DNA from: Dehalococcoidia bacterium
GTDB lineage: Bacteria; Chloroflexota; Dehalococcoidia; Lucifugimonadales; G963665405
Length of the DNA stretch: 64,000 nt
NCBI GenBank assembly: GCA_963665405.2
Contig: CAXXUH010000003.1
Coordinates: forward strand, 292,809 to 356,808
Reading direction: 5' to 3'
The position numbers and the translations under genes were made by a program. Positions 1,691 through 58,857 of this stretch are shown here, in pieces. The notes under the pieces were generated by a model. The model saw nothing but the letters and a program-made list of their open reading frames with translations, ran no database searches and was not told where the DNA came from. Each line of letters starts with the position of its first letter. Position 1 is the stretch's first letter.

Positions 1691-1694
1691 GTTC

Positions 1695-36255: not shown

Positions 36256-36286
36256 CTCCTGTCCTCCTTCTCCGTCTGCATGCACT

Positions 36287-41799: not shown

Positions 41800-41805
41800 G
41801 AGGCA

Positions 41806-41890: not shown

Positions 41891-42664
41891 TCAGCTAACC
41901 CACTTCGCGTCCCGCTTCTCCAGAAACGCCCCGATGCCCTCGCTCGCGTTCGGCGACATCAGGTTGCCCACCATGACCCTCTCGGCGAACCTGTACGCCT
42001 CCGGCCGGTCCATCGTGAGCTGCTTGTAAAAGGCCGCCTTGCCGAGCGCCATCACCGACGGGCTGTACGAAGCCACCCGGCGGGCCAGCGACATCGTCTC
42101 CTCCTCCAGATCGTCGACGGGAACGACCCTGTTGACGAGTCCGGAGGCCAGCGCGTCCCGGGCCGAGATCGGCGTCCCGGTCAGAAGCATCTCCATCGCC
42201 TTCTTGGGCGGGACCGCCCGCGCCAGCGCGACGCCCGGTGTCGTGCAGAAGAGCCCGATCTGGACCCCAGGGGTGGCGAAAGACGCCTCCTCCGATGCGA
42301 TGACCATGTCGCAGGTGGCGACGAGCTGGCAGCCGGCGGCGGTCGCCAGGCCCCGCACCTGGGCGATCACCGGCTGGGGCAGCAGCCGTATCGTCTCCAT
42401 GACCTCCGTGCAGAGGTCGAAGATCTCGGCGTACGCCTCGCGATCTCCCTCGATCAGCTCCGTCAGGTCGTGCCCGGAGCTGAAGGCCGGCCCCTCGGCC
42501 CGCAGGACAACCACGTGGACCCCTGCGTCGTCTCTCGCCTCATCCAGCCGAGCCTTGAGGGCGGACAGGACCTCGTGCGAGAGCGCGTTGCGCCGCCGCA
42601 GATTGTCGAGGGTGATGACCGAGATGTCGCCGATCCGCTGCCGCGGAACAAGCTCCTGTGTCAT
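41891..42664 (-). CDS. Enoyl-CoA hydratase/isomerase (crotonase family)
   Basis: 257 aa with crotonase pattern VVLRAEGPAFSSGHDL and GLATAAGCQL. Confidence 0.9.
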   Translation of the reverse strand: MTQELVPRQRIGDISVITLDNLRRRNALSHEVLSALKARLDEARDDAGVHVVVLRAEGPAFSSGHDLTELIEGDREAYAEIFDLCTEVMETIRLLPQPVIAQVRGLATAAGCQLVATCDMVIASEEASFATPGVQIGLFCTTPGVALARAVPPKKAMEMLLTGTPISARDALASGLVNRVVPVDDLEEETMSLARRVASYSPSVMALGKAAFYKQLTMDRPEAYRFAERVMVGNLMSPNASEGIGAFLEKRDAKWVS

Positions 42665-45496: not shown

Positions 45497-45550
45497 GTTT
45501 CCAGATTCCTCTTTCCAGCTTCCCGTACCATCTGGGGCGCCCCCATACTA

Positions 45551-45895
45551 CCCCATCTTGGGGGGACGGCGGCCAATCGTCTGAGAGCCTGTCCTGAGCT
45601 AGTCGGACGGGTGTCCCTCGGAAGCATCGCCACCCCTTCTTAGACGGCTGCGGCGAACGGAGAGTCCGGGGGAAAAGACCCCTTGTCGGGAGTCCGAAAG
45701 CGTACTGGATGTCATTCCGAGCCGCAGCGAAGAATCTGGGGCTGGGCCGCCGCCCCAGACCCCTCGTCGTCCCGACGCGGATCCTCGTTCTGGGGGTTCT
45801 AAGGGAGCCTTGGCCCCATTCGCGGGGGCTTGGGGGACTCCCCCAAGAATAAGACCCCTCAGGGCGGGTGCGTGGGACATACGCGATCCGATTGG
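45551..45895. repeat. Degenerate stacked-hairpin / MITE-interior repeat cluster
   Basis: TCTGAGAGCCTGTCCTGAGCTAGTCGGACGGGTGTCCCTCGGA, GTCATTCCGAGCCGCAGCGAAGAATCTGG and a partial MITE interior (GGGCGGGTGCGTGGG). Confidence 0.7.
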
Positions 45896-45937
45896 TCCGA
45901 ACGGGCATCCCTCAAAAGTAGTTTCCCACTTCCTAAG

Positions 45938-47649
45938 CCCGAATCCACCGAAGGTATGACGTTGCAGCAGCAGAATGGGTGATGAGGGGCAAAGGGAGGC
46001 GATGGTCCGGGCACGATTCGGGTAAATGGGGCCGGTGTCTGTCTTCAGCCGCCGCGGGGAGACCTTGTGACCGTCTGGGGACGTTGGGTAGGGCGAGATG
46101 GCGGGGAGAGGACGCGGCGAGAGGTGCTCGCGGACCGGACTGGCGCGAGTTTGCGGGGACGTTCGGTTGGGCGGATGGCGGGTCAGTTGCGGACGGGCGC
46201 CGTCAGGCTGGGAGTGGAATCGCTCGCAGCCGTGCCAGGGCGCGACTGAACTGGGTTTCCCAAGGCCAGCGCTGTGGCAGATGCAGGGTGAGGCGGCGTG
46301 CCGAGCGGGTGAGCCGTCCGGCCAGGGAGAAGAACCGTCGCCGAAGGGTCTTGGTGGTCGCGATCTGCTCGCCCAGACCGATCCGCGCCGTCCAGCGGGC
46401 CAGGTTGTGGGCCATCACCTGTACCGCCAGCCAAGCGCCGTTGGCGGCGAAGCGGCCGGACGGCATGTGGTTCAGACCGACGCCGTACTTGAGGTCTCGA
46501 ATGGCGTTCTCGATCTCGGCGTGGCGGCGGTGGTCGGCCTCCAGTTCCAGGGTCTCTCCGTCCCGGTCGGTGATGAAGCCGTGATAGCTGTAGGTGGCGA
46601 AGAGGGCCAGTTGGGAACCGGGCGTGGGCTTCACCCGCCGGACGATGAGCCGCACCGGTGCGGCGCCGGGCTCAGTCCGGAAGGGGGTGTAGGTGGTCTG
46701 CGCCACATCGGCGGCGCCGTCCATCCAGTAGGGGACCGGCGTCCAGTCTGCATCGGGAATCGCCTCGATCAGGTTCCGCAGGCTTTTGTGCTGGCGGATG
46801 GTGATGGAGAAGCGGACATCCATCTCACGACAGGCGGCGACGAGAGCGTGGGCGTAGAAGCCGCTGTCGGCCCGCGCCGTAAGTTGCCCGCTGGCCCCGG
46901 CACGGCGAACCCGGCTCACCGTTTCACGCAGGAAGTGGGCGGCGCCCCGAGCGGTGTTGGCGCGGCCCTCGCGCAGCCGGGACATCAGCACGTCGCCGGT
47001 GCCGGCGGCGACGGCCAACAGGGGGTGATAGCCCCGCTTGCCGGGATAGCCGTGGTGGCGCGCTCCCTCCTTGGCCAGTCCATAGGTCTCGCAGATGGTC
47101 GAGTCCAGGTCGATGGTCAGGGGCGAGTCGCCGGGTCCGGCCCCAGCGGCCCAGGCCCGGGCCAACAACTGGCGGCTCACGCGGTCGAGTTGACGGACAT
47201 GCCCCCACCGGAAGCTGCGCAGGAAGGTCCCCAGGGTGGATGGCGCCTTGACCACGCAGCCTAGAACACCGACCGTCCCACCAGCGCGCAGCGCATCGGC
47301 GTCGTCGATGCAGTCGCCGCCAGCCAGCGCGGAAGCGACCAGCGTCAGCATCTTGTCCCCCGTGTTCGCCCGTCCCGGCGCGCCGCCGAGGTCAAGGTGA
47401 TGGTCGACGAGTTCTCGCAGGCCCAGGTGCCGGGCGAGGGTGGCCGGCACGAGCAGGCCGGCATTGGCCACCAGGCGATGGTCGTCAAAGAGGATGCGGA
47501 TACGGTCGGGTTTGTTCTGTGGCAGCATCTATTGGGTGCTCCTTGTTTCCGCGCGGGTTTCTGTTCCAAAACCATTATCCCAGATTCAGAGGAGCACCCT
47601 CTAGCTTCTTCATGGGCTGTCCCCAAGGCCGTCCTTCGGTGGATTCGGG
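45938..47649 (-). mobile_element. IS1380-family insertion sequence, copy 1 (intact)
   Basis: Ends CCCGAATCCACCGAAGG... / ...CCTTCGGTGGATTCGGG are perfect inverted repeats. A 5-bp direct repeat CTAAG sits at 45933-45937 and 47650-47654. Confidence 0.85.
46203..47528 (-). CDS. IS1380-family DDE transposase
   Basis: 441 aa. LTIDLDST, HGYPGKRGYHPLLA and ADSGFY...IENAIRDLKYG are typical of IS1380-type DDE transposases. Confidence 0.9.
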   Translation of the reverse strand: MLPQNKPDRIRILFDDHRLVANAGLLVPATLARHLGLRELVDHHLDLGGAPGRANTGDKMLTLVASALAGGDCIDDADALRAGGTVGVLGCVVKAPSTLGTFLRSFRWGHVRQLDRVSRQLLARAWAAGAGPGDSPLTIDLDSTICETYGLAKEGARHHGYPGKRGYHPLLAVAAGTGDVLMSRLREGRANTARGAAHFLRETVSRVRRAGASGQLTARADSGFYAHALVAACREMDVRFSITIRQHKSLRNLIEAIPDADWTPVPYWMDGAADVAQTTYTPFRTEPGAAPVRLIVRRVKPTPGSQLALFATYSYHGFITDRDGETLELEADHRRHAEIENAIRDLKYGVGLNHMPSGRFAANGAWLAVQVMAHNLARWTARIGLGEQIATTKTLRRRFFSLAGRLTRSARRLTLHLPQRWPWETQFSRALARLRAIPLPA

Positions 47650-47654: not shown

Positions 47655-47785
47655 GGGGCGACCGCCAATGGGGAGTACAGAGGGGCGAAGCCGCTTTGTC
47701 TGGAGTCTCCCGGCGCGCCGCCGAGGTCAAGGTGAGGGTGTCCCTCAGAAATACATTTTCCACTCTTCCCCTTAAGAGGGTGGGT
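47655..47785. repeat. Stacked-hairpin repeat copy carrying a 28-nt IS-derived segment
   Basis: CAGAGGGGCGAAGCCGCTTTG hairpin, then GGAGTCT-[insert]-GAGGGTGTCCCTCAGA. The insert region 47708-47735 is identical to IS interior 47373-47400. Confidence 0.85.
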
Positions 47786-47910
47786 TGGCGAAACAGGCGC
47801 AGGCAACAGACGCCTGGTCTGAGGTCCGTGAGCGTGCCTAGGCGCGGACGCCCCCAGGACGATATGGTACCATTGCCCACGCCGCCCAAACCCCCTTTCA
47901 AGGAGACGCC

Positions 47911-48969
47911 ATGAAAACGAGAGCCGCCGTCCTTGTCGAGCCCAACAAGCCCCTCGCCGTGGACGAGATGGAGGTCCCCGACCCCGGACCGGACCAGGTG
48001 ATCGTCAAGCAGATCTCCACCGGAGTCTGCCTGTCCCAGGTCCACCAGATCTCAAAGACCGCGCCGGAGGACTGCCCACAGCTTCTAGGACACGAGGGGA
48101 CCGGAGTCGTCACCCACGTCGGGAGCCGCGTGACGCACCTCAAAGAGGGCGACTGGGCGATCGTCACGTGGGTCCCGAGGGCCGGATACCCGGGACGCGA
48201 TTTCATCGACGGCCTGTCCCCAACCGGCGTGAAGTTTCGCGGCGAGCTGGCCAAAGGGCCGGTCTACACCTTCGCCGAAGACGTCCTGGCTCACGAGCAG
48301 CTCGTAGTCGGCATCCCAAAACAGGATGCGACCCTAGAGAGCTGCATCGTCGGCTGCGCCATCCTCACCGGGGCGGGCGCCGTCCTCCACAGTGCGAAGG
48401 TGCGGCCCGAGGACTCCGTCGTCGTGATCGGGGCGGGCGGTGTGGGCCTCTCCGCAATCAAGATGGCCTCGCTTCTCCAGGCCTATCCGGTGATCGCGGT
48501 CGACATCAGGGACGAGAAGCTGGAGTTCGCGAAGGGCTGGGGTGCGACCCACGGCGTCAACTCGGCCAAGGTGGACCCGGTCGAGGCGGTCCGTGACATC
48601 ACGGGCGGCGGAGCCGACTTCTCGTTCGACGCGGTCGGAAGCCGCCCGACCCAGGAGATCCTTCTGCCGATGCTGCGCAGCGGTGGACCGGGCGCCGACA
48701 ACGTTGGGGGCATGGCGGTCCTCATCGGCTGGCCCGAGGTGTTCACCATCGACGGAGCCCACTTCGTATTCAACCAGCGTCAATTCCGTGGCAGCCACGG
48801 ATCGAGCATCCCGGACCGCGACTTCCCGATGTACCTGCGGATGCACCGCGAGGGGCGGTTCCCCCTCGACAAGCTGGTCACCCGGAGCTACACCCTGGAC
48901 CAGGCCCAGCAGTCGATGGAAGACCTCGCCGCCGGCAAGATATCGGGCAGAGCCATAATCAAGTTCTAG
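47911..48969 (+). CDS. Zinc-dependent alcohol dehydrogenase (MDR family)
   Basis: GHEGTGVVTHVGSRV and GAGGVGLSAI Rossmann motifs. 352 aa. Confidence 0.9.
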   Translation: MKTRAAVLVEPNKPLAVDEMEVPDPGPDQVIVKQISTGVCLSQVHQISKTAPEDCPQLLGHEGTGVVTHVGSRVTHLKEGDWAIVTWVPRAGYPGRDFIDGLSPTGVKFRGELAKGPVYTFAEDVLAHEQLVVGIPKQDATLESCIVGCAILTGAGAVLHSAKVRPEDSVVVIGAGGVGLSAIKMASLLQAYPVIAVDIRDEKLEFAKGWGATHGVNSAKVDPVEAVRDITGGGADFSFDAVGSRPTQEILLPMLRSGGPGADNVGGMAVLIGWPEVFTIDGAHFVFNQRQFRGSHGSSIPDRDFPMYLRMHREGRFPLDKLVTRSYTLDQAQQSMEDLAAGKISGRAIIKF

Positions 48970-48984
48970 GCATTGCGGAAAGGG

Positions 48985-49465
48985 AAATCCAGATCCCGAC
49001 AAGTCGGGATTACCGGGAGCCTGAGAGCCTGCCCTGAGCTTGACGAAGGGGTGTCTCTGGTGGAACCGGGAAGTCCAGAGGGGCGAAGCCCCTTTGGCGG
49101 GAGTCTGAGGGTGTCCCTCAGAAACAAGCCTTCTTCTTCCTACCTATCAAATCAGGCGGCGAGCCGAGCCCGTCAAACGACGCGGTACGCCGACACCACA
49201 CTTAGGAGGAGAACTCGTAGAGGGACGATGAACCGGGAAGTCCAGAGGGGCGGAGCCCCTTTGGCGGGAGTCTGAGGGTGTCCCTCATAAACAACCCTTT
49301 TTTTCTTACCCATCTTCCCCTCGCAGGGGAAGGTGAGGAAGAGCGCCTCCCAACCGGAACGCCCGGTCTTCGGGCTGGTCCCACGGGGTTCCAAAGGGGG
49401 ATCGCCCCCTTTGCGGGGTTTGGGGTGCCCCTACCTCTCGGGCGGGTGGGCGGGCCAGACACGGG
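48985..49465. repeat. Stacked-hairpin repeat cluster ending with a MITE-interior fragment
   Basis: GATCCCGACAAGTCGGGAT, an interrupted hairpin with AGCCTGCCCTGAGCTTGACGAAGGG, two CCAGAGGGGCG(A/G)AGCCCCTTTGGCGGGAGTCTGAGGGTGTCCCTCA copies, and GGGCGGGTGGGCGGG at 49440-49454. Confidence 0.8.
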
Positions 49466-49555
49466 TGAGTAACCTCGCCGTAGAATGATGAACGACCGGC
49501 TTCGAGACGACTAAGTCGGGATTACCCCGGAGCAAAGCAGAGCTAGGAGGACCCC

Positions 49556-50305
49556 GTGAGACTCACCGGCAAGGTAGCACTGATAACCGGAGCGGCTCGC
49601 GGCCAGGGTGCCGTCGAGGCGCGACTCTTCGCGAAGGAGGGCGCCAGCGTAGTCCTCACCGACATAAGGGACGACGAGGGCGAGAAGGTGGCGGCCGAGA
49701 TCAACGAGCTCGGTGGTAAGGCCCACTACATGCGGCACGACGTCATCGAGGAGAGGGAGTGGGTCGTCGCCGTCGCGCGGACCGTCGAGCTGTTCGGCGG
49801 GCTCCACGTGCTGATCAACAACGCCGGCATCTTCGTAACCACGGTCATTGAGCACACCACCGTCGAAGAGTGGGACCGCATCATGGACATCAACGCGCGC
49901 GGGGTCTTCCTCGGGATCAAGCACGCCATCCCGGCGATGCGGGAGTCGGGCGGCGGCTCCATCGTCAACATCTCCTCGACCGCGGGGCTGGTGGGGAACC
50001 CCAGAGAGGGGGCGTACACAGCCTCCAAGGGCGCCGTCCGCCTCATGACCAAGAGCGCTGCCATCCAGGCCGCGAAAGACGGCATCCGAGTCAACTCCGT
50101 CCACCCGGGCTTCATCGACACTGAGATGGTCGCCTTCATCTCGCAGGACCCGGAGTCCATGGCGGAGATCATGCCTAAGATTCCCCTCGGCCGCAGCGGT
50201 ACCTCCGACGACATCGCCAAGGGCGCGCTCTTCCTCGCCTCCGACGAGGCCTCGTACGTCACCGGCACCGAGCTCGTCATCGACGGCGGCTACGTAGCCC
50301 AGTAA
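49556..50305 (+). CDS. Short-chain dehydrogenase/reductase (SDR)
   Basis: GTG start. TGAARGQG, NNAG and YTASKGAV motifs. Confidence 0.9.
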   Translation: MRLTGKVALITGAARGQGAVEARLFAKEGASVVLTDIRDDEGEKVAAEINELGGKAHYMRHDVIEEREWVVAVARTVELFGGLHVLINNAGIFVTTVIEHTTVEEWDRIMDINARGVFLGIKHAIPAMRESGGGSIVNISSTAGLVGNPREGAYTASKGAVRLMTKSAAIQAAKDGIRVNSVHPGFIDTEMVAFISQDPESMAEIMPKIPLGRSGTSDDIAKGALFLASDEASYVTGTELVIDGGYVAQ

Positions 50306-50446
50306 GAACCCCGGCGTACACCCTCCCCGAAGGCCCCTGGACCCCGCACGTCAATCGCCACGGTTGCTCCAGGCCAATCGACCCGGTATCCTGATCGTCG
50401 AATCCCGAACCCCTTGCGGCATTCAGCCAACACGAAAGGCCGCAAC

Positions 50447-51769
50447 ATGACCGCCCCGACAGTGTTCATCAGCTACAGCCACGACTCCGAAGAACACGGA
50501 GATAGAGTGCTCGCCCTTGCGGATAGGTTGAGGCGCGAGGGCATAGACGCGAGCCTTGACCAGTACGAGGATTCTCCGCCCGAGGGGTGGCAAGGATGGA
50601 TGGACAGGCACGTCCGAGAGTCGGACTTCGTTCTCATGGTGTGTACTGAGACCTACTACCGCCGCGTCCTCCGAAAAGAGAAGCCGGGAGCGGGACGGGG
50701 AGTCAAGTGGGAAGGCAATCTGATCTATATCCACCTATACGAAGCCGAGGCGAACCGGCGCTTTATTCCCGTGGTTTTCGGAGACGGTAGCCTCGAACAC
50801 ATCCCTGACCCGCTAAGGAGCGCGACGCACTATCGCGTCGACACGAAACGGGGATACGAGGACCTGTATCGTCGCCTAACAGATCAGCCCGGGACGCCGA
50901 AACCCGCGCTGGGTAAGCCACAGAGCCTGGCCTCACGTCGGCGAAAACAGCAGTTCTCAACAGCCGTTGTAGCCCCAGCGCAACGGGTCTCCATAGCCCA
51001 GCTCCCCGCGACAGGCGAGCACCTCTTCGGCCGGGACGACGAGCTCAAGCTGCTCGACGAGGCCTGGGACAACTCCGCCACCAACGTCATCAGCCTGGTG
51101 GCGTTCGGCGGCGTGGGCAAGTCGGCGCTGGTGAACTATTGGCTCGGTCAGATGGCCCAGAACCAGTACCGCGGGGCAGAGCGCGTCTACGCCATCTCCT
51201 TCTACAGCCAGGGCAGCCGGGAGGCCGTCACCTCGGCGGATCAGCTGATCGACGCTGCGCTGCGCTGGTTTGGGGACGAGGACCCGACCTCGGGCTCTCC
51301 GTGGGGGAAGGGCGAGCGACTGGCCCGTCTGGTAAAACGCGATAAAACGCTGCTCGTGCTGGACGGCCTGGAGCCGCTCCAGCAGCCGCCCGGTCCGGAC
51401 GGAGGCCGGCTGAAGGAGCACACGCTGACAGCACTCGTGCGCGAGCTGGCGGCGTCCAACGAGGGGCTTTGCGTCATCACCACGCGCCAAGAGGTGGGTG
51501 ACCTGAAACAATTTGGCCGGTCTACCGCACCCGTAACGGAGCTGGAGCACCTGTCCGACAAGGCTGGAGCCCAGCTTCTCCGAGTGCTGGGAGTTGAAGG
51601 GCGGGATAGCGAGCTTGAGCAGGCTTCGCACGAGTTCGGCGGCCACGGCCTTGCGCTGAACCTCCTGGGCACCTACCTCCACGATGTGGCTGGGGGCGAC
51701 GTCCGCCGCTGGCGCGAAGTAGACCTGCTCGAGCAGGACGAGGAACAGGGGGTCAGGCTCTGCGTGTAA
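50447..51769 (+). CDS. TIR/SEFIR-like domain plus NB-ARC (STAND P-loop NTPase) protein; N-terminal part of a split TIR-NB-ARC-TPR gene
   Basis: VFISYSHDSEEH...SDFVLMVCT (TIR/SEFIR-like). Walker A AFGGVGKSALV, Walker B LLVLDGLE, and the GLPLA-like GGHGLALNLLG. The stop TAA overlaps the next ATG (TAATG). Confidence 0.8.
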   Translation: MTAPTVFISYSHDSEEHGDRVLALADRLRREGIDASLDQYEDSPPEGWQGWMDRHVRESDFVLMVCTETYYRRVLRKEKPGAGRGVKWEGNLIYIHLYEAEANRRFIPVVFGDGSLEHIPDPLRSATHYRVDTKRGYEDLYRRLTDQPGTPKPALGKPQSLASRRRKQQFSTAVVAPAQRVSIAQLPATGEHLFGRDDELKLLDEAWDNSATNVISLVAFGGVGKSALVNYWLGQMAQNQYRGAERVYAISFYSQGSREAVTSADQLIDAALRWFGDEDPTSGSPWGKGERLARLVKRDKTLLVLDGLEPLQQPPGPDGGRLKEHTLTALVRELAASNEGLCVITTRQEVGDLKQFGRSTAPVTELEHLSDKAGAQLLRVLGVEGRDSELEQASHEFGGHGLALNLLGTYLHDVAGGDVRRWREVDLLEQDEEQGVRLCV

Positions 51770-53271
51770 TGGCGTCATACGAGAAACGACTCGGCGAGGG
51801 TCCTGCACTGGCGGTACTTCGGCTCGTTGGGCTGTTCGACCGACCCGCGCCGGGAGAGCAGGTCCGGGTCCTCAGACGGCCGCCGGCCATCCCCGCCCTG
51901 ACCGATACGCTGGCGAACCTTTCCGACACGCAATGGCGGCGGGCTCTCGCGCGTTTGCGTCAGGCACGACTCCTGTCCGAGGCCGACCCTCAATCTGACG
52001 ACCTGGACGCCCACCCACTGGTGCGCGAACACTTCGGACAGCGGCTCAGGGAAGAGTCTCCGGACGCCTGGCGGGAGGGCCACAGCCGGCTGTACGAACA
52101 CTTGCGAGACAGCACCAAGAAGTTCCCTGACACGATCGAGGAGATGGCGCCCCTGTACTCGGCTGTGTCCCACGGCTGCCAGGCCGGACGTCACCAGGAG
52201 ACATTTGACGACGTGTACTACCGGCGCATCCAGCGCGACGGGAGAACAAACTATTCCTTTGCTCAGCTTGGAGCCGTTGGCGCAGATACATCAGCGTTGT
52301 CGTGGTTCTTTTCCCCGCCCTGGAGCCATCCAGCCGACGGCCTCAACGAAAGTGACAAGGCTTTTGTGCTTGGCGCGGCGGGTTTCCGCCTGCGCGCGTT
52401 GGGGCGACTACGCGAGGCCGTACAGCCGTTGCAGGCTGGGTTGGAGGCTCGGATTGAACAAGAGCAGTGGGAAAACGCCGCAATCGCCGCCAGCAACCTC
52501 AGCGACCTCCATCTCATCATGGGGGAGACCGGCGAAGCAGTCGACTACGCGCGGCAGGCCGTTGAGCTGGCCGATCGCAGCGGAGACCAGTTCCAACAGA
52601 TGGCCAGCAGAGTCAGGTTGGCCCAGTCCCTGCACCAGACCGGCCGGATAGCCGAGGCTGAGGCGCTCTTCGAGGAGGCGGAGAAGATCCAGCAAGAGTT
52701 CCAGCCCGGGTTTCCTATCTTATACTCCCTCCAGGGCTATCAATACTGCGACCTGCTGATCGACCAGGGCAAGTATGACGAGGTTAGAGAACGGACTGCG
52801 CAAACACTCGAATGGGTAACGAGGGAGCAGTTGCTCCTAGCCATGGCCCTCGACCACGTTGCCCTGGGTCGAGCGTCGCTGCTCCAGGCCAAGCGCGACG
52901 ACCGCCGAGACTTCGCAGAGGCTCGGAACCACCTGGACCAGGCCGTGGAGGGCCTGCGGCGGGCAGGCATCCAGGCGTTCATCGCCCACGGCCTACTGGC
53001 CCGTGCCGCGCTGTACCGGGTGAGCGGCAACTTCGATCAGGCGCAACGGGACCTGGAGGAGGCCATGGCCATAGCCGAGCGTGGGTCCATGAGGCTTTAC
53101 GAAGCCGACGCCCGCCTGGAGTACGCTCGGCTGCATCTCGCGACTGGCGAGGGGGACTCGGCACGCCAGAGCCTCGACGCCACCAGGAACATGATCGCCG
53201 AAATGGGCTACCACCGGCGCGACGGCGAAGTCCAGGAGCTTGAGCAGCGGCTTGCCGCGCAAGGAGCCTGA
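51769..53271 (+). CDS. Winged-helix/TPR repeat protein; C-terminal part of the split STAND gene
   Basis: SYEKRLGEGPALAVLRLVGLFDRPA (post-NB-ARC region) followed by multiple TPR-like helical repeats (ALGRLREAVQPLQAG, IMGETGEAVDYARQAVEL, QTGRIAEAEALFEEA and others). Confidence 0.8.
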   Translation: MASYEKRLGEGPALAVLRLVGLFDRPAPGEQVRVLRRPPAIPALTDTLANLSDTQWRRALARLRQARLLSEADPQSDDLDAHPLVREHFGQRLREESPDAWREGHSRLYEHLRDSTKKFPDTIEEMAPLYSAVSHGCQAGRHQETFDDVYYRRIQRDGRTNYSFAQLGAVGADTSALSWFFSPPWSHPADGLNESDKAFVLGAAGFRLRALGRLREAVQPLQAGLEARIEQEQWENAAIAASNLSDLHLIMGETGEAVDYARQAVELADRSGDQFQQMASRVRLAQSLHQTGRIAEAEALFEEAEKIQQEFQPGFPILYSLQGYQYCDLLIDQGKYDEVRERTAQTLEWVTREQLLLAMALDHVALGRASLLQAKRDDRRDFAEARNHLDQAVEGLRRAGIQAFIAHGLLARAALYRVSGNFDQAQRDLEEAMAIAERGSMRLYEADARLEYARLHLATGEGDSARQSLDATRNMIAEMGYHRRDGEVQELEQRLAAQGA

Positions 53272-53272
53272 G

Positions 53273-53590
53273 ATGCCGGATCATCGCCGAGTCCTCGTGG
53301 TCGACCCGGACTCCGAAACAATGGACAAGATGACGGCCACGCTTGAAGGCGATGCCTACATCGTGACCGGCACCCAGAGCGACGGCGTCGCCCTGGACCT
53401 CGCCCAGTCGTCGGAGTTCGATGCACTCGTCATCAGCTCCGGGGTCCCGCTGTCCGACCGCGGATACCTGATGAGTCGCGCCCGCGACCGCCATCCCGAC
53501 ATCGCCGTCGTCATCGCCCAGGGTCCCCAATCAGTGCTCATCCAGCTCAGGCAGGCGTTCAAAGAAAAGGACAGCGAGAAGATCAGGTAG
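53273..53590 (+). CDS. Stand-alone CheY-like receiver domain protein
   Basis: VLVVDPD acidic pocket and FDALVISS putative phospho-acceptor Asp. ATG 53273 has AAGGAG upstream and sits 2 nt after the TPR gene stop. Confidence 0.6.
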   Translation: MPDHRRVLVVDPDSETMDKMTATLEGDAYIVTGTQSDGVALDLAQSSEFDALVISSGVPLSDRGYLMSRARDRHPDIAVVIAQGPQSVLIQLRQAFKEKDSEKIR

Positions 53591-53594
53591 CGAG

Positions 53595-53825
53595 ATACGG
53601 GGTGTGCAGAGGAGCGAAGCCCCCATGCCGGGAGTCTGAGGGTGTCCCTCAGATATGACCCTTCTCTCGTCGCCCAAGTGGGGGGCCGAGCCCGTCAAGC
53701 GATGCAACGCCCCGTCGTCCTGCCCAGAAGTGATCCGCCCAGCAGGATGACGACACATGGGGAGTGCAGAGGGGCGAGCCCCTTTGCCCGGAGTCTGAGG
53801 GTGTCCCTCTCTGCCTGGGCCATCC
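53595..53825. repeat. Two stacked-hairpin repeat copies
   Basis: GGGGTGTGCAGAGGAGCGAAGCCCCCATGCCGGGAGTCTGAGGGTGTCCCTCAGATAT and GGGGAGTGCAGAGGGGCGAGCCCCTTTGCCCGGAGTCTGAGGGTGTCCCTC. Confidence 0.8.
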
Positions 53826-54013
53826 GGGCAAGATACCCCCAGCGGGCTAACGGTTAGTACCAAATACCCAGTCACCCTGGTACTTCAGGTTCTGTCGCCT
53901 GACGGTACTTTACGGTTTAATTCCATCAGACGGGCAGCACAATGGCGGTGTTATTCGACAGGCGCCCCTGGCCGGCCGGCTGCCCCACAGACAGCGCTGA
54001 CACCGAGTTTCAT

Positions 54014-54256
54014 ATGCCAAGAGGGCTGCCGTTTTTTGCCTTCGGCCTGGCGGCGGGAATCATTTCTACGCTGGGCGTCGTTACCGGTCCCTGGCTGCCT
54101 ACTCAGGCGGGCAGCGTCTCCGACGGAGCTGTCGACGGAACCTCCTCTCCTGGAACGACCCTGGCAGCTACCGAGTTCCAGGATTCGGACCCCCGAGCTC
54201 ACGTTGGCAGAATCGTCGAACGTCACCTCCACTGTCCGAAGCTCTTCAGGCGGTAG
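54014..54256 (+). CDS. Membrane-anchor ORF, probably the displaced N-terminus of the downstream protease
   Basis: MPRGLPFFAFGLAAGIISTLGVVTGPWL TM helix. The ORF ends in GRIVERH..., which resembles the pre-catalytic segment of HtrA-like proteases. Its stop overlaps the GTG of the next ORF in a different frame. Confidence 0.35.
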   Translation: MPRGLPFFAFGLAAGIISTLGVVTGPWLPTQAGSVSDGAVDGTSSPGTTLAATEFQDSDPRAHVGRIVERHLHCPKLFRR

Positions 54257-54798
54257 TGCGGGTCCGCACCAGGATCGCCGCCGGCTCGGGCGTGATCATC
54301 GACCCAGCCGGGCTTGTGTTGACCAGCGCCCATCTGGTGGGTGACAGCCTCAGCGCGCAGGTTCTGGTCGACGACACCAGGACCGTCATCGGCACGGTGA
54401 TCCACCTGGACGAGCTCAGAGACCTGGCCCTGTTGCAGCTGCCTCACGGCAAATATCGCTCGGCGAGGCTGGGCCGCAGCTCCGACGTCGTGCTGGGAGC
54501 CTGGGTATCGGCTATCGGTTACCCGTTGAACCTGGCAGGTCCGGCTACGATCACGACCGGCGTCGTGTCCCGTCTTCTCGATGAGCCGGAGTCTCGACGA
54601 GAGGTGTTGCAGACCGATGCGGCCATACACATTGGCAGCAGTGGCGGCCCCATCGTCGGCTCGAACGGAGAGGTGATAGGGATAATCGCGTCGGTGCTCG
54701 GCGAGTACAAATCCTTCCCGACGAGTGGGATCAGCTACGCCGTCTCTGTTAAGACGATCCGAGACGATTTCCTTGAAGAAATCGGCCTGGATCCCTAG
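54256..54798 (+). CDS. Trypsin-like (S1C) serine protease catalytic domain
   Basis: GSGVIIDPAGLVLTSAHLV (His), LRDLALLQL (Asp) and GSSGGPIV (Ser). No signal or anchor in this frame. Confidence 0.65.
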   Translation: MRVRTRIAAGSGVIIDPAGLVLTSAHLVGDSLSAQVLVDDTRTVIGTVIHLDELRDLALLQLPHGKYRSARLGRSSDVVLGAWVSAIGYPLNLAGPATITTGVVSRLLDEPESRREVLQTDAAIHIGSSGGPIVGSNGEVIGIIASVLGEYKSFPTSGISYAVSVKTIRDDFLEEIGLDP

Positions 54799-54819: not shown

Positions 54820-55665
54820 CTATGCGGCTCGTCTTCTCGATGCCAGAACGACGCCTGCCCCCACTGCGACGAGTCCGCCGATGCTCCCTAACACGATGAT
54901 GAGCGCTAGGATTCCGCCGCTCATGCCGCCGCCTTCGTCCTCCAGTGGGAACGCTGCGGGCGTGGGCTCGGGCGGCGCTTCGAAGGTGGGCAGCGGCTCT
55001 GCAGTCGATGTCGCCGTCGGCACGGCTGATGGTGCCGCGGTCGAGGTTGGCGTGGGCGTCGCGGTCGCCGCTACGGCTGCCGGAACCAGCGTCGGCGTTG
55101 CAGTTGGCCGCACCGGCGTCGAGGGCGCCGTCGGCGTTGCTGTCGCCTCAGCCGGTGGCACAGGCGTTGACGTTGGAGTCGGCGTCGGAGTCGTGGTAGA
55201 CGTGGGCGTCGCCCCCGTCTCCGCTGGAGGCGTGGCGGTCGGCGTAGCCTGCACCGTCGGCGAGGGCGTCTGAGTAGCCTCCGGTGCGGGTGCGGGCGTT
55301 GGAGTGGCCTCCGGCGTGAGCGTGGCAGCCGGTGCGCCTGTCCAGACCAGAGCGAAGGTTGAGAAGCTGGACAGGAAGGCGGTGAACGTCCGGCGCGAGA
55401 AGTCGTGCGTTGTCAGGATGCTGTCCCACTCGCCCGAGGACGGCCTGAATCGCCGAATAGACAGTCGACCAGCTACGACCTCGTCTAACATCGCGGTGGG
55501 CCCACCAAGCTCCTGCACCTCCTGATCTGACAGCGTCACCGTCAGGGCAGCCGCGAAGAAGAAATTTGCGTCCCGGATCGGATTGCCTTCCGCGTCGAAC
55601 AGGTCGATCTGAACCGCTCGCAGGGCGCGCCCCAGAGGCTGGACCTCCAGCGACGCGGCGTCCAA
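54820..55665 (-). CDS. Pro/Thr/Ala-rich protein with a C-terminal TM anchor
   Basis: About 115-aa low-complexity (T/P/A)n linker, then GILALIIVLGSIGGLVAVGAGVVLASRRR. TTG start 5 nt from the IS end. No signal peptide or SD sequence, so the N-terminus is uncertain. Confidence 0.55.
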   Translation of the reverse strand: MDAASLEVQPLGRALRAVQIDLFDAEGNPIRDANFFFAAALTVTLSDQEVQELGGPTAMLDEVVAGRLSIRRFRPSSGEWDSILTTHDFSRRTFTAFLSSFSTFALVWTGAPAATLTPEATPTPAPAPEATQTPSPTVQATPTATPPAETGATPTSTTTPTPTPTSTPVPPAEATATPTAPSTPVRPTATPTLVPAAVAATATPTPTSTAAPSAVPTATSTAEPLPTFEAPPEPTPAAFPLEDEGGGMSGGILALIIVLGSIGGLVAVGAGVVLASRRRAA

Positions 55666-55674
55666 GAGCTTTAG

Positions 55675-57357
55675 CCCGAATCCACCGAATGACGGCCTTG
55701 GGGACAGCCCATGAAGAAGCTAGAGGGTGCTCCTCTGAATCTGGGATAATGGTTTTGGAACAGAAACCCGCGCGGAAACAAGGAGCACCCAATAGATGCT
55801 GCCACAGAACAAACCCGACCGTATCCGCATCCTCTTTGACGACCATCGCCTGGTGGCCAATGCCGGCCTGCTCGTGCCGGCCACCCTCGCCCGGCACCTG
55901 GGCCTGCGAGAACTCGTCGACCATCACCTTGACCTCGGCGGCGCGCCGGGACGGGCGAACACGGGGGACAAGATGCTGACGCTGGTCGCTTCCGCGCTGG
56001 CTGGCGGCGACTGCATCGACGACGCCGATGCGCTGCGCGCTGGTGGGACGGTCGGTGTTCTAGGCTGCGTGGTCAAGGCGCCATCCACCCTGGGGACGTT
56101 CCTGCGCAGCTTCCGGTGGGGGCATGTCCGTCAACTCGACCGCGTGAGCCGCCAGTTGTTGGCCCGGGCCTGGGCCGCTGGGGCCGGACCCGGCGACTCG
56201 CCCCTGACCATCGACCTGGACTCGACCATCTGCGAGACCTATGGACTGGCCAAGGAGGGAGCGCGCCACCACGGCTATACCGGCAAGCGGGGCTATCACC
56301 CCCTGTTGGCCGTCGCCGCCGGCACCGGCGACGTGCTGATGTCCCGGCTGCGCGAGGGCCGCGCCAACACCGCTCGGGGCGCCGCCCACTTCCTGCGTGA
56401 AACGGTGAGCCGGGTTCGCCGTGCCGGGGCCAGCGGGCAACTTACGGCGCGGGCCGACAGCGGCTTCTACGCCCACGCTCTCGTCGCCGCCTGTCGTGAG
56501 ATGGATGTCCGCTTCTCCATCACCATCCGCCAGCACAAAAGCCTGCGGAACCTGATCGAGGCGATTCCCGATGCAGACTGGACGCCGGTCCCCTACTGGA
56601 TGGACGGCGCCGCCGATGTGGCGCAGACCACCTACACCCCCTTCCGGACTGAGCCCGGCGCCGCACCGGTGCGGCTCATCGTCCGGCGGGTGAAGCCCAC
56701 GCCCGGTTCCCAACTGGCCCTCTTCGCCACCTACAGCTATCACGGCTTCATCACCGACCGGGACGGAGAGACCCTGGAACTGGAGGCCGACCACCGCCGC
56801 CACGCCGAGATCGAGAACGCCATTCGAGACCTCAAGTACGGCGTCGGTCTGAACCACATGCCGTCCGGCCGCTTCGCCGCCAACGGCGCTTGGCTGGCGG
56901 TACAGGTGATGGCCCACAACCTGGCCCGCTGGACGGCGCGGATCGGTCTGGGCGAGCAGATCGCGACCACCAAGACCCTTCGCGACGGTTCTTCTCCCTG
57001 GCCGGACGGCTCACCCGCTCGGCACGCCGCCTCACCCTGCATCTGCCACAGCGCTGGCCTTGGGAAACCCAGTTCAGTCGCGCCCTGCACGGCTGCGAGC
57101 GATTCCACTCCCAGCCACGGCGCCCGTCCGCAACTGACCCGCCATCCGCCCAACCGAACGTCCCCGCAAACTCGCGCCAGTCCGGTCCGCGAGCACCTCT
57201 CGCCGGCGTCCTCTCCCCGCCATCTCGCCCTACCCAACGTCCCCAGACGGTCACAATCACCGGCCCCATTTACCCGAATCGTGCCCGGACCATCGCCTCC
57301 CTTTGCCCCTCATCACCCATTCTGCTGCTGCAACATCATACCTTCGGTGGATTCGGG
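55675..57357 (+). mobile_element. IS1380-family insertion sequence, copy 2
   Basis: Same termini as copy 1. 5-bp direct repeat TTTAG at 55670-55674 and 57358-57362. It lacks a 28-nt segment present in copy 1. Confidence 0.85.
55796..57116 (+). pseudogene. IS1380-family transposase, frameshifted
   Basis: Identical to copy 1 over about 395 aa apart from a P/T difference. CTTCGCGACGG (about 56977-56987) corresponds to CTTCGGCGACGG in copy 1, a loss of one G. This changes the frame so the last about 45 aa are replaced and the ORF reads through to 57430. Confidence 0.8.
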
Positions 57358-57368
57358 TTTAGCTTTAG

Positions 57369-58857
57369 CCCGAATCCACCGAAGGACGGCCTTGGGGACA
57401 GCCCTTGAAGAGCCAGCGGGGCTCCTCTGAATCTGGGATAATGGTTTTGGAACAGAAACCCGCCCGGAAACTAAGGAGCACCCAACAGATGCTGCCACAG
57501 AACAAACCCGCGTATCCGCATCCTTTGAAGACCATCGCCTGGTGGCCAATGCCGGCCTGCTCCTGCCGGCCACTCCGGCACGGGAACTCGTCGACCGTTT
57601 CACCTTGACCTCGGCGGAGCGCCGGGACGGGCGAACACTGGGGACAAGATGCTGACGCGGTCGCTTCCGCGCCCTGGCAGCCGGCGACTGCATCGACGAC
57701 GCCGATGCGCTGCGCGCTGGTGGGACGGTCGGTGTTCTAGGCTGCGTGGTCAAGGCGCCATCCACTCTGGGGATCTTCCTGCGCAGCTTCCGGTGGGGGC
57801 ATGTCCGTCAACTTGACCGCGTGAGCCGCCAGTTGTTGGCCCGGGCCTGGAAGCCGGGGCCGGACCCGGCGACTCGCCCCTGACCATCGACCTGGACTCG
57901 ACCATCTGCGAGACCTATGGACTGGCCAAGGAGGGAGCGCTCAACCTATGGCCCGTCGGCTATCACCCGGCTGGCCATTGCCGCCGGCACTGATGTCCAT
58001 GCCGAGGTCCGGGCCGACACCGCCCGTGGCGCCGCCGCACGGCGGGGCCAACAACTCACGGTGCGGGCTCGACGCGGCTTCTACGCCCACACTGTCGTTG
58101 CCGCCTTGGATGTCCGCTTCTCTATCACCATGCCAGCGCCCACCGGGACCTGATCGAGGCGATACCAGAGGAGGACTGGACTCCCATTCCCAGGATGGAT
58201 GGCGCCGATGTCGCCGAGACGACTTACACCCCTCCAGGCCAAGCCGGACGCCGCGCCGGTGCGGCTCATTGTCCGGCGGGAGCGATGCCCGGTTCCCAGC
58301 TCGCCCTCGATACAGCTATCACGCCCATCACCGACCGCGATGGGGAGACGCTGGAACTGGAGGCCGATCATCGCCGCCACGCCGAGGTCGAGGCCATACG
58401 CGACGGTTCTGCCGTCGGCGCGCTTCGCCGCCAACGGCGCCTGGCTGGCGGTCCAGGTGATGGCCGGACGGCGCGGATTGGTCTGGGCGAGGGGACCCTG
58501 ATCACCACCCTCAGGCGACGGGTCTTCGACTGGTGCGGATCACCCGCTCGGCGCGCCGCCTCACTTTGCATCTCCCCCGGCGCTGGCCTTGGGAAACCCA
58601 GTTCAGTCGCGCCTTGGCCCGGCTGCAAGCCATTCCGTTCCCGGCCTGACGGCCAGCCTGCAACTGACCCAACGTCCCCCATCTCGCGCCACCCCGGTCG
58701 CGAGTGCTGCGTATCCTCTCGCCATCCCGCGCATCGCAACTCCCGCATAGGGTCTTAGGGGCCCTGTCCATCTACCCCAAGGCCATCTCCCCTGTAGCTC
58801 CCTCACCCCCTTCCGCTGTCCTCACGCCGTCCATCCGTGTCCTTCGGTGGATTCGGG
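57369..58857 (+). mobile_element. IS1380-family insertion sequence, copy 3 (decayed, no intact ORF)
   Basis: Both termini are retained (CCCGAATCCACCGAAGG / CCTTCGGTGGATTCGGG). The interior aligns to copies 1 and 2 with many small deletions and substitutions. Flanks are TTTAG and CTTAG. Confidence 0.8.

What the first reader, a model, noticed from the sequence alone, without database searches (positions are those of the whole stretch)
50447..53271. TIR/SEFIR-NB-ARC and TPR halves of a STAND (NLR-like) protein are separated by a one-base shift at a G5 run
Seen: ORF 1 carries the TIR-like domain plus the P-loop NTPase motifs GGVGKS, LLVLDGLE and GHGLALNLLG. It ends at TAA, overlapping the ATG of ORF 2 (TAATG).

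The ORF 2 frame is open upstream of that ATG and reads GGQALRV-MASYEKRL. Adding one G to GGGGG (51748-51752) would join ...LLEQDEEQG to GQALRVMASYEKRLGEG..., giving one TIR-NB-ARC-TPR ORF of about 950 aa.

Known: bacterial TIR-STAND/NLR-like proteins act in anti-phage defence.

Inference: three explanations fit. It may be a homopolymer sequencing error, a phase-variable or pseudogenised defence gene, or a genuine translationally coupled two-gene version. Other frameshifts in this window also sit at short homopolymers, including the transposase of IS copy 2 and possibly the protease at 54.2 kb.
Basis: partly seen in the sequence, partly recalled or inferred. Interest (0 to 1): 0.65.

Follow-up and report, generated by a model that had tools for sequence, protein, structure and literature searches.

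The report
Frameshifted SEFIR-STAND-TPR defence gene allele
A roughly 941-residue immune-type gene of an uncultured sponge-associated Chloroflexota bacterium is cut into two reading frames here by the loss of one G from a six-G run; the broken copy is a real minority allele in nature, which makes this an ordinary recently inactivated defence gene rather than a new two-part system.

Summary
ORF1 (50447-51769) encodes SEFIR/TIR, a P-loop NTPase and helical domain 1. ORF2 (51769-53271) encodes the winged helix and TPR array. They are the two halves of one STAND (NLR-like) protein, out of frame by one base at GGGGG 51748-51752.

- **The intact form exists.** Adding one G gives a 941-aa ORF identical in every residue to a protein from another public assembly. 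About 120 close homologues are single proteins, mostly 930-990 aa.
- **The frameshift is a real allele.** Independent assemblies of 20 DNA runs from 11 samples show G6 in 17 runs. G5 appears in 3 runs from 2 samples, 2 host species and 2 studies. Both forms occur in one sample.
- **It is heritable.** G5 travels with a synonymous SNP 960 bp upstream, so it is not a read error.
- **The intact form is expressed.** Metatranscriptome contigs that cross the run carry G6.
- **A functional split is unlikely.** The break lies in a conserved motif at the start of the winged-helix domain, and the TAATG overlap reuses an internal Met codon.
- **Phase variation is not supported.** The tract is short and has two states only.

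Best reading: a recent, segregating loss-of-function allele of a SEFIR-STAND-TPR abortive-infection gene. Interest is low to moderate.

The parts
50447..53271 (+). Whole SEFIR-STAND-TPR gene. It is 941 aa when the run is G6; here it is interrupted.
   Evidence: The +1G translation is a single ORF. It is identical to P0134. Homologues are single proteins, mostly 930-990 aa.
50447..51769 (+). ORF1, 440 aa: SEFIR effector, linker, P-loop nucleotide-binding domain and helical domain 1. It ends in five out-of-frame residues, VRLCV, then TAA.
   Evidence: Pfam SEFIR, TIR_2, NACHT and AAA_16; PADLOC bSEFIR 2e-56; structural model.
50459..50881 (+). SEFIR (TIR-like) domain, residues about 5-145.
   Evidence: Pfam SEFIR matches residues 5-131 and TIR_2 residues 6-144. 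PDB bacterial SEFIR 5y8e at 1.7e-11 and Act1 SEFIR 9ot1. Invariant residues F7, Y10, D13, H17, D38, Y40, W48, W51, E89.
51107..51124 (+). Walker A motif GGVGKS.
   Evidence: Read directly from the sequence. G222, G224 and K225 are invariant in 52 homologues.
51350..51373 (+). Walker B motif LLVLDGLE.
   Evidence: Read directly from the sequence. D306, G307 and E309 are invariant.
51638..51670 (+). GxP-type helix of helical domain 1, GGHGLALNLLG.
   Evidence: G399, H400, L402, A403 and L404 are invariant. Helix 401-414 in the model.
51748..51752 (+). The G5 run. Intact alleles have G6 here (CAG GGG GGT = Q-G-G). Loss of one G shifts the frame at codons 435/436.
   Evidence: G6 in 17 of 20 DNA runs and in 2 RNA runs; G5 in X1, X2 and X14. 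It is the only gap in 6,984 bp against L015.
51767..51771 (+). TAATG stop/start overlap. The ATG is the codon of internal Met442 of the intact protein.
   Evidence: Met442 is present in the intact alleles. No Shine-Dalgarno-like sequence lies 5-10 nt upstream.
51769..53271 (+). ORF2, 500 aa: winged-helix domain lacking its first six residues, a helical domain and the TPR sensor array.
   Evidence: Pfam TPR_12 and TPR_MalT; model helices 436-940; nearly all of the best-matching representatives carry this part at about 430-950 of longer proteins.
52003..52020 (+). LDAHPL, an MHD-like motif of the winged helix with a conserved His. In this allele it is encoded on a different polypeptide from the P-loop.
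   Evidence: D521, H523 and P524 are invariant. The role of the His is inferred from Apaf-1 and plant NLRs.
52348..53268 (+). TPR array, fused residues about 635-941.
   Evidence: Regular helix pairs 635-940 in the model; Pfam TPR families.
52347..52388 (+). A 42-bp segment that is deleted in frame in some natural alleles, removing 14 aa at the start of the TPR array.
   Evidence: Skipped in X19, X20 and the RNA run X25. Corresponds to the 927-aa proteins P0125 and P0127.
53273..53590 (+). A 105-aa ORF that starts one base after the gene's stop codon (TGA 53269-53271, ATG 53273). It is syntenic in this species only and is probably not part of the system.
   Evidence: Present in L001-L003 and L015. 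Absent next to distant homologues. Only a sub-threshold TrkA_N hit and no PADLOC hit.

Best explanation
**What it is.** The locus is one gene for a STAND (NLR-like) immune protein of about 941 aa. Its layout is an N-terminal SEFIR (TIR-like) effector, an Apaf-1-like P-loop NTPase module (nucleotide-binding domain, helical domain 1, winged helix) and a C-terminal TPR sensor.

**What happened here.** In this genome one G has been lost from a G6 run (CAG GGG GGT). The ribosome therefore reads five wrong codons and stops after residue 435. That is a recent loss-of-function allele, a pseudogene in the making. It segregates at low frequency alongside the intact allele in natural populations of a sponge-associated Chloroflexota bacterium.

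**How the intact protein most likely works (inferred).** The TPR array binds a phage-derived ligand. Autoinhibition held by the winged-helix His on bound ADP is released. ATP-dependent oligomerisation brings the SEFIR domains together. These cleave NAD+, and infection aborts.

**What the split allele most likely does (inferred).** ORF1 keeps the effector and the P-loop but loses the winged helix and the sensor. ORF2, if made at all by reinitiation at the internal Met442, has the sensor but no effector. The system is most likely inactive.

**Shown versus inferred.** Shown: the domain content, the single-base cause, the existence, expression and predominance of the intact allele, and the reality of the G5 allele. 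Inferred: anti-phage function, NADase chemistry and inactivity of the split form.
For: **Domains**
- Pfam SEFIR 65.9 bits, TIR_2 60.1, NACHT 34.1 (gathering score 26.7), TPR_12 57.1.
- PADLOC bSEFIR 2e-56.
- PDB SEFIR domains 5y8e and 5y8f.
- AlphaFold2 model with pLDDT 84.7. Its best structural matches are the STAND-TPR protein 6mfv, then Apaf-1, NRC4, MalT and CED-4.

**One gene**
- The +1G fusion equals P0134 with 0 of 941 differences.
- About 120 homologues are single chains.
- ORF2-like sequence sits at about 430-950 of longer proteins in nearly all of the 150 best representatives.
- The two short representatives that were examined proved to be a contig-edge fragment and a gene-calling artefact over a continuous ORF.

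**Real allele, not an error**
- G5 appears in Logan contigs of X1 (k-mer depth 6) and X2 (depth 18), both from sample S1, and of X14 (depth 10.6) from another host species and study.
- G6 appears in 17 other runs, including X3 from S1.
- SNP 50788T occurs only with G5 contigs, plus as a mixed site in X3. The 16 other G6 runs carry C (Fisher p = 0.018).
- Against L015 the run is the only indel in 6,984 bp, alongside 9 mismatches.
- Of 71 homopolymers of 5 nt or more in 23.5 kb tested, only a G14 tract and this run vary.

**Recent and unadapted**
- The flanks are identical to those of intact alleles.
- The break lies in the conserved motif QG.HARRVM.SYE.W (G435, H437, A438 and R440 near-invariant, Y445 invariant), at the start of winged-helix helix 436-449.

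**Expression.** RNA contigs from X26 and X25 cross the run with G6.

**Function of SEFIR.** bSEFIR defends against phi29 (10.1101/2022.05.11.491447) and depletes NAD+ through its N-terminal SEFIR domain (10.1101/2024.02.11.579819).
Against: - **No raw reads were available.** Only per-run contigs could be used, and these hide minority variants. Allele frequencies within a sample are therefore unknown.
- **Possible long-read origin.** The window's assembly, and probably runs X1-X3, may come from long reads, as the metaMDBG-style contig names suggest. Their main error type is homopolymer length.
- **Other broken copies look like errors.** Two near-identical broken copies come from 2x-coverage contigs.
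- **Weak statistics.** The linkage test rests on few, partly non-independent runs, and X2 breaks the pattern (C with G5).
- **No G5 transcript was seen,** so nothing is known about expression of the split allele.
- **No experimental support for this family.** No member of this SEFIR-STAND-TPR family has been tested. The PADLOC bSEFIR profile matches only the SEFIR domain, positions 35-203 of 412.
Confidence: 0.75

Rival explanations
1. Sequencing or assembly error. The organism really has G6, and the G5 in the window is a homopolymer miscall of a long-read metagenome assembly.
For: - The window contig and related contigs carry metaMDBG-style names, which points to long-read assembly.
- Two other broken copies of this gene lie in contigs labelled 2x, with +T in a TTT run and +G after CTC.
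- The window also has private 25-bp and 3-bp differences from every run tested, including one from the same sample.
- 17 of 20 runs show G6.
Against: - G5 is reproduced by independent k-mer assemblies of X1 and X2, and of X14, which is from another host species, sample, study and year and carries its own private SNPs 51405A and 51805A.
- G5 is linked to SNP 50788T, 960 bp away. A read error could not produce that linkage.
- No other short homopolymer differs in 23.5 kb.
- It is the single indel in 7 kb against L015.
Confidence: 0.1
2. Phase variation. The G tract is a contingency switch that turns a costly abortive-infection gene off (G5) and on (G6) reversibly by slipped-strand mispairing.
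For: - Both tract lengths occur in one sample: X1 and X2 have G5, X3 has G6.
- G5 occurs in symbionts of two host species.
- X2 shows G5 on a 50788C consensus.
- The gene is a dispensable defence gene.
- A true hypervariable G14 tract exists in the same genome, so slippage does operate there.
Against: - The tract is only 5/6 nt, below the length of known homopolymer contingency tracts (general knowledge).
- The window holds 25 other G/C runs of 6 nt, so this tract is not unusual.
- It arises from ordinary codons for Q-G-G.
- Only two states are seen.
- G5 is largely confined to the 50788T haplotype, which fits a single origin.
- Per-run contigs of mixed strains are chimeric, so the X2 exception is weak evidence.
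Confidence: 0.1
3. A genuine two-gene version. ORF1 (effector plus NTPase) and ORF2 (winged helix plus TPR sensor) are translationally coupled through TAATG and reassemble into a working split NLR.
For: - The stop and start codons overlap (TAATG).
- ORF2 begins only seven residues after the break, at a domain boundary between helical domain 1 and the winged helix.
- The allele persists in at least two samples.
Against: - None of about 120 close homologues is split.
- Of the 14 or so short entries among the 150 representatives, the two that were checked were artefacts.
- The ATG is the pre-existing codon of Met442, and the stop is simply the first out-of-frame stop.
- Both flanks are identical to those of intact alleles, so nothing has adapted.
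- Near-invariant residues at positions 437, 438 and 440 are lost from both products.
- No Shine-Dalgarno-like sequence lies at the right distance.
Confidence: 0.03
4. Programmed -1 ribosomal frameshifting or transcriptional slippage at the G run restores the full-length protein from the G5 template.
For: - ORF2 lies in the -1 frame relative to ORF1.
- A G run lies just upstream of the stop.
Against: - In the ORF1 frame the codons are CAG GGG GTC, which is not an X XXY YYZ slippery heptamer (read from the sequence).
- Intact G6 alleles dominate in nature, so recoding is not a conserved feature.
- Five G is short for transcriptional slippage (general knowledge).
Confidence: 0.02

Closest known systems
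bSEFIR defence protein of Bacillus sp. NIO-1130 (Millman et al. 2022, 10.1101/2022.05.11.491447; NAD+ depletion stated in 10.1101/2024.02.11.579819)
   Same: Both have an N-terminal SEFIR domain. The PADLOC bSEFIR hit is 2e-56, the SEFIR score exceeds the TIR_2 score, and the conserved acidic and aromatic residues are present. Both are single-gene systems with the effector at the N-terminus.
   Different: Only profile positions 35-203 of 412 match. The rest of this protein is an Apaf-1-like STAND NTPase plus a TPR array, and it is more than twice as long. No member of this architecture has been tested.
Antiviral STAND proteins (Avs/AVAST) and bacterial NLR-related bNACHT proteins
   Same: Both have a tripartite layout of effector, STAND NTPase and C-terminal repeat sensor. 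The expected logic of ligand-triggered oligomerisation and abortive infection is the same. An AVAST5 filament structure (9nc9) appears among the structural matches.
   Different: No Avs or bNACHT model in PADLOC matches, even at E = 1. The effector here is SEFIR rather than a nuclease, protease, SIR2 or classical TIR.
Apaf-1, CED-4 and plant TIR-NLR (NB-ARC clade), and the TPR-STAND protein 6mfv
   Same: These are the best structural matches: 6mfv at 4.6e-13 and Apaf-1 at 4e-9. Shared motifs are Walker A and B, TTR, the GxP helix, the SY..L start of the winged helix, and an MHD-like DAHPL.
   Different: The Pfam NB-ARC model scores 14.8 bits, below its 23.5-bit threshold, whereas NACHT passes. 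Sequence identity to all of these is 12-18%.
Frameshift-inactivated accessory or defence genes segregating in bacterial populations (general phenomenon)
   Same: A single-base indel in a short homopolymer truncates a dispensable gene. The intact and broken alleles coexist.
   Different: Nothing distinctive, beyond the fact that it is documented here across wild sponge-symbiont metagenomes.

Membership tests
STAND (NLR-like) NTPase | P-loop NTPase with Walker A (GxxGxGK[ST]) and Walker B (hhhhD[GD]) motifs | tested here: met
   GGVGKS at 51107-51124 and LLVLDGLE at 51350-51373. K225 and D306 are invariant in 52 homologues.
STAND (NLR-like) NTPase | Curated STAND-type NTPase profile above threshold | tested here: met
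   Pfam NACHT scores 34.1 bits against a gathering score of 26.7. AAA_16 and nSTAND1 are below threshold.
STAND (NLR-like) NTPase | Helical domain 1 with a GxP motif, followed by a winged helix carrying a conserved His (MHD-like) | tested here: met
   GGHGLALNLLG and LDAHPL, with H400 and H523 invariant. Model helices 401-414 and 436-449 onward. Apaf-1 and 6mfv are the top structural matches.
STAND (NLR-like) NTPase | C-terminal repeat sensor and N-terminal effector on one polypeptide | tested here: not met
   Met by the intact G6 alleles, which are 941 aa. Not met by the window's G5 allele, where effector plus NTPase and winged helix plus TPR lie in two ORFs.
NB-ARC subfamily (Pfam PF00931) | Match to the NB-ARC profile above the gathering score | tested here: not met
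   14.8 bits at E = 0.017, against a cut-off of 23.5. The resemblance is at the level of fold and motifs only.
bSEFIR defence system | N-terminal SEFIR domain whose SEFIR hit is stronger than its TIR hit (the criterion of Millman et al.) | tested here: met
   SEFIR 65.9 bits against TIR_2 60.1 bits, at residues 5-144. PADLOC bSEFIR 2e-56.
bSEFIR defence system | Full-length similarity to the validated protein family | tested here: not met
   Only profile positions 35-203 of 412 are matched.
bSEFIR defence system | Asp needed for SEFIR-SEFIR interaction (D40 in the Bacillus protein) | tested here: inconclusive
   D38 in LDQYE is invariant in 52 homologues. It was not aligned residue by residue to the Bacillus protein.
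bSEFIR defence system | Protection against phage and NAD+ depletion on infection | not testable with these tools
   Needs expression and phage challenge.
Avs/AVAST and bNACHT families | Match to family HMMs in PADLOC | tested here: not met
   PADLOC on the intact P0001 at E up to 1 returns only bSEFIR.
Phase-variable contingency locus | Repeat tract long enough for high-rate slippage (for homopolymers, usually 7-8 nt or more) | tested here: not met
   The tract is 5 or 6 G, made of ordinary Q-G-G codons. There are 25 other G/C runs of 6 nt in the window.
Phase-variable contingency locus | Tract length varies within a population | tested here: met
   X1 and X2 have G5 and X3 has G6, all from sample S1.
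Phase-variable contingency locus | Switching is recurrent and independent of haplotype | tested here: inconclusive
   G5 is mostly on the 50788T haplotype (p = 0.018), which favours a single origin. X2 shows C with G5, and contigs of mixed strains are chimeric.
Translationally coupled split gene or programmed frameshift | The split or recoding site is conserved in orthologues | tested here: not met
   No split is seen among the 120 closest homologues. The two short representatives that were examined were artefacts.
Translationally coupled split gene or programmed frameshift | Canonical X XXY YYZ slippery site in the upstream frame | tested here: not met
   The codons are CAG GGG GTC.

The most novel reading that the evidence does not exclude
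The G5/G6 run might act as a low-rate reversible switch that lets a sponge-symbiont population keep both defended and undefended cells for a costly NLR-like abortive-infection gene. Alternatively, the two ORFs might still work together as a naturally split NLR, with effector plus NTPase on one chain and winged helix plus TPR sensor on the other. The evidence does not exclude either, because no raw reads, lineage data or functional assays were available.
Probability: 0.08. Interest if true: 0.55.

Novelty: new member of a known kind. Interest (0 to 1): 0.25.

Why it matters
- **Annotation.** The two ORFs should be annotated as one frameshifted gene (a pseudogene allele), not as a TIR/NTPase protein plus a separate TPR protein.
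- **Biology.** The locus is a clean natural example of a defence gene being lost by a single-base deletion while the intact allele remains common and transcribed in the same host-associated population. This fits the view that abortive-infection genes are dispensable and turn over quickly.
- **An untested family.** The SEFIR-STAND-TPR family is large: 5,805 proteins at E of 1e-10 or better among the 8,000 candidates scored. It is found in Acidobacteriota, Chloroflexota, Planctomycetota and even a Methanosarcinaceae genome. It is experimentally untested, so the intact allele (P0134) is a reasonable candidate for a first functional test of a SEFIR effector under STAND control.

Tried and rejected
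1. **Other broken copies as evidence of repeated pseudogenisation: rejected.** The 90% cluster also holds a 777+142-aa pair and a 932-aa copy. Both lie in contigs labelled 2x and carry G6, so they are probably low-coverage errors.
2. **Search for natural stand-alone ORF2-like proteins.** About 14 of the 150 best representatives are short. I checked two: P0201 is cut by a contig end, and P0321 is a gene-calling artefact over a continuous TIR-NTPase-TPR ORF.
3. **The 105-aa downstream ORF as a partner gene: rejected.** It is not found next to distant homologues and has no family hit.
4. **Scan of species-representative genomes.** It did not find this species, only 46-53% relatives.
5. **Cluster look-ups of neighbouring proteins.** These gave no organism names. 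The phylum came instead from DNA polymerase I homologues, whose nearest named relatives at 64-66% identity are Chloroflexota/SAR202.
6. **Rfam and tRNA scans.** Nothing relevant to the locus.
7. **Test for a generally error-prone assembly: rejected.** No other short homopolymer varies in 23.5 kb.
8. **Programmed frameshift: rejected** on sequence grounds.


Full report
**1. The observation**

- ORF1 starts at ATG 50447 and ends at TAA 51767-51769.
- The last A of that stop is the first base of the ATG of ORF2 (51769-51771). ORF2 runs to TGA 53269-53271.
- The G run is exactly five bases, 51748-51752.
- ORF2 lies in the -1 frame relative to ORF1, and that frame is open from 51619.
- Inserting one G gives a 941-codon ORF without internal stops, reading ...LLEQDEEQGGQALRVMASYEKRLGEG....

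**2. What the two ORFs encode**

- ORF1 matches Pfam SEFIR (65.9 bits), TIR_2 (60.1 bits) and NACHT (34.1 bits, above the curated 26.7). It also gives sub-threshold hits to AAA_16 and nSTAND1.
- ORF2 matches TPR_12 and gives a sub-threshold hit to TPR_MalT.
- PADLOC recognises only the SEFIR domain: bSEFIR at 2e-56, covering profile positions 35-203 of 412.
- The nearest solved sequences are the bacterial SEFIR domains 5y8e and 5y8f and the SEFIR of Act1.

An AlphaFold2 model of the intact protein was built on 52 homologues and is confident (pLDDT 84.7, pTM 0.72). It shows:
- SEFIR at residues 1-145;
- a disordered linker at 150-178;
- a nucleotide-binding domain and helical domain 1 up to about residue 424;
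- a winged helix starting with helix 436-449;
- a further helical domain;
- regular TPR helix pairs from about residue 635 to the end.

Foldseek against the PDB puts the TPR-containing STAND protein 6mfv first (4.6e-13). Apaf-1, the NRC4 resistosome, MalT and CED-4 follow. No NACHT-type animal NLR is described among the top 50.

The STAND call is therefore sound. 'NB-ARC' is right for fold and motifs: Walker A, Walker B, TTR, the GxP helix, the SY..L start of the winged helix, and an MHD-like LDAHPL. The Pfam NB-ARC model itself fails, at 14.8 bits against 23.5.

**3. One gene or two**

- The 120 best homologues share 45-63% identity with the fusion. Nearly all are single proteins of 930-990 aa carrying the same domains.
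- Within the 90%-identity cluster there are several intact 941-aa proteins. One of them, P0134, is identical to my +1G fusion at every residue.
- Its locus, L015, comes from another sample. It aligns to window 47771-54753 over 6,984 bp with nine mismatches and a single gap, which is the G run.
- A profile-free search of 1.8 billion representatives with ORF2 alone finds the matching part at about 430-950 of longer proteins in nearly all of the 150 best hits.
- Of the short hits, I examined two. P0201 is cut by a contig end. P0321 lies in a continuous TIR-NTPase-TPR ORF that the gene caller had truncated.

Orthologues are therefore not split, and the two-ORF state is derived.

**4. Error or real allele**

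I laid the per-run Logan contigs of 20 DNA runs on the gene. These came from 11 samples and 8 host labels.
- Seventeen runs have G6.
- Three have G5. X1 and X2 are from sample S1, host A, with k-mer depths 6 and 18. X14 is from sample S9, host B, from another study and year, with depth 10.6.
- X14 carries two private non-synonymous SNPs, 51405A and 51805A.
- X3, from the same sample as X1 and X2, has G6. Both alleles therefore coexist in that sample.

The synonymous SNP 50788T is seen only in the window, in X1, in X14 and as a mixed site in X3. All 16 other G6 runs have C there, and X2 has C with G5. By run, this association gives Fisher p = 0.018. A miscall cannot be linked to a SNP 960 bp away.

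As a control I laid four runs on 17.3 kb upstream, and four on 6.2 kb around the gene.
- Of 71 homopolymers of 5 nt or more in those 23.5 kb, only two vary in length: a G14 tract at 34739-34752 and the focal run.
- The window's assembly is therefore not riddled with homopolymer errors.
- The method does detect real tract variation.

Two other broken copies in the cluster looked at first like repeated pseudogenisation: a 777+142-aa pair and a 932-aa protein. Both come from contigs labelled 2x. One has a +T in a TTT run and the other a +G after CTC, and both carry G6 at the focal run. I treat them as low-coverage errors, not as evidence.

Illumina metatranscriptomes of two hosts contain this gene. 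The two RNA contigs that cross the run, from X26 and X25, carry G6. The intact allele is therefore transcribed in situ. No G5 transcript was seen.

**5. Consequence of the frameshift**

- The deletion falls in codons 435/436, inside the conserved motif QG.HARRVM.SYE.W (G435, H437, A438 and R440 near-invariant, Y445 invariant). This is at the first helix of the winged-helix domain.
- ORF1 keeps SEFIR, the P-loop and helical domain 1, then ends in VRLCV.
- ORF2 begins at Met442, which is an internal residue of the intact protein. The TAATG overlap is therefore a by-product of where the first out-of-frame stop falls, not a designed junction.
- No Shine-Dalgarno-like sequence lies 5-10 nt upstream of that ATG.
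- The invariant His of the MHD-like motif (H523) is now on a different chain from the P-loop. In Apaf-1 and plant NLRs this His holds ADP in the closed state.
- I infer that the split allele is non-functional. Whether ORF1 alone is inert or deregulated cannot be told from sequence.

**6. Likely mechanism of the intact gene (inferred)**

- bSEFIR from Bacillus sp. NIO-1130 protects against phi29. It loses protection with a D40A change in its SEFIR domain (10.1101/2022.05.11.491447).
- It is described as depleting NAD+ through the N-terminal SEFIR domain (10.1101/2024.02.11.579819).
- By analogy with Avs proteins and NLRs, the TPR array would sense a phage product. The NTPase module would then oligomerise, and the clustered SEFIR domains would degrade NAD+ and abort infection.
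- The protein is not a member of the Avs or bNACHT HMM families. It shares only the SEFIR domain with the tested bSEFIR.

**7. Context**

- The window is chromosomal. It carries DNA polymerase I at 7271-10054 on the minus strand, whose nearest named relatives at 64-66% identity are Chloroflexota/SAR202.
- The holders of the sequence include sponge metatranscriptomes, among them runs labelled 'sponge metagenome'.
- The gene sits between two copies of a DDE_Tnp_1_4 insertion sequence at 46206-47528 and 55796-57427. The order is: alcohol dehydrogenase, short-chain dehydrogenase, the SEFIR gene, a 105-aa ORF, and a trypsin-like protease.
- The 105-aa ORF is not conserved beside distant homologues.
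- IS positions differ between samples.
- A second TIR-type gene lies 12 kb upstream.

**8. Verdict**

The best explanation is a recent, naturally segregating loss-of-function frameshift in a SEFIR-STAND-TPR defence gene (confidence about 0.75).

| Alternative | Confidence |
|---|---|
| Sequencing error | about 0.10 |
| Reversible phase variation | about 0.10 |
| Functional split gene | about 0.03 |
| Programmed recoding | about 0.02 |

It is a new member of a known kind and of low to moderate interest. The family itself is large and untested, and the intact allele would be a sensible construct for a first functional test.

Noticed in passing
window 34739-34752: A G14 homopolymer in a non-coding stretch that is repeated in the metagenome. 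Its length varies between runs: two G fewer in X2 and four fewer in X9, and X14 has a nearby +GG at 34683. It is a genuine hypervariable tract and a possible phase-variable promoter or spacer.
   Followed up: partly
window 35686-35710 and about 36309: The window has 25 bp that X2, X5 and X9 lack (X14 does not cover the site), and 3 bp that all four runs tested lack. X2 is from the same sample as the G5 runs. This may be a private variant or an assembly artefact. It lies in or near the ORF at 35551-36285 on the minus strand.
   Followed up: partly
window 37127-38434 (-): A second TIR-type gene of 436 aa. It hits Pfam CAP12/Pycsar effector TIR (1.9e-26) and PADLOC TIR effector models (5e-45). 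Run X9 has a 1-bp deletion at 38302 and a replaced segment at 36405-37140, so this defence-like gene also varies between strains.
   Followed up: partly
window 46206-47528 (-), 55796-57427 (+), about 57363-58670: There are three copies of a DDE_Tnp_1_4 insertion sequence. Copy 1 is intact (441 aa). Copy 2 differs by small indels at 56982, 57087, 57117 and 57205, which gives an aberrant 544-aa ORF. The third copy is degenerate (76-92% identity). In L015, from another sample, an IS sits in the 3' end of the protease gene instead, so insertion sites are polymorphic.
   Followed up: partly
window 53433-53846, 55503-55700, 41394-41970, 45433-46000, 28700-29276: Short non-coding elements with k-mer depth of 300-3,500 in DNA runs, against 6-35 for their flanks. 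In metatranscriptomes the depth reaches about 5,000 at 53606-53700. Related copies also lie at about 49060-49320. This is an extremely abundant, transcribed repeat family of this symbiont or community.
   Followed up: no
window 53942-54256 and 54256-54798 (+): A 104-aa ORF with a hydrophobic segment abuts a 180-aa ORF that holds a complete Trypsin_2 domain, in a different frame. None of X1, X2, X3 or X10 shows an indel within these ORFs; the only one nearby is a 1-bp deletion in X10 at 53836, upstream of the first ORF. If this is a frameshift it is fixed, not polymorphic.
   Followed up: partly
window 52347-52388: A 42-bp in-frame deletion allele of the SEFIR-STAND-TPR gene, removing 14 aa at the start of the TPR array. 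It occurs in X19, X20 and the RNA run X25, and corresponds to the 927-aa proteins P0125 and P0127.
   Followed up: partly
window 18061-18176 (-): A SAM riboswitch (RF00162), 86.3 bits, matching the full-length model.
   Followed up: no
window 54820-55665 (-): A 281-aa ORF with a long Thr/Pro/Ala-rich low-complexity region and a C-terminal hydrophobic segment. It has no Pfam hit. It looks like a mucin-like surface protein, or it may be a spurious ORF.
   Followed up: no
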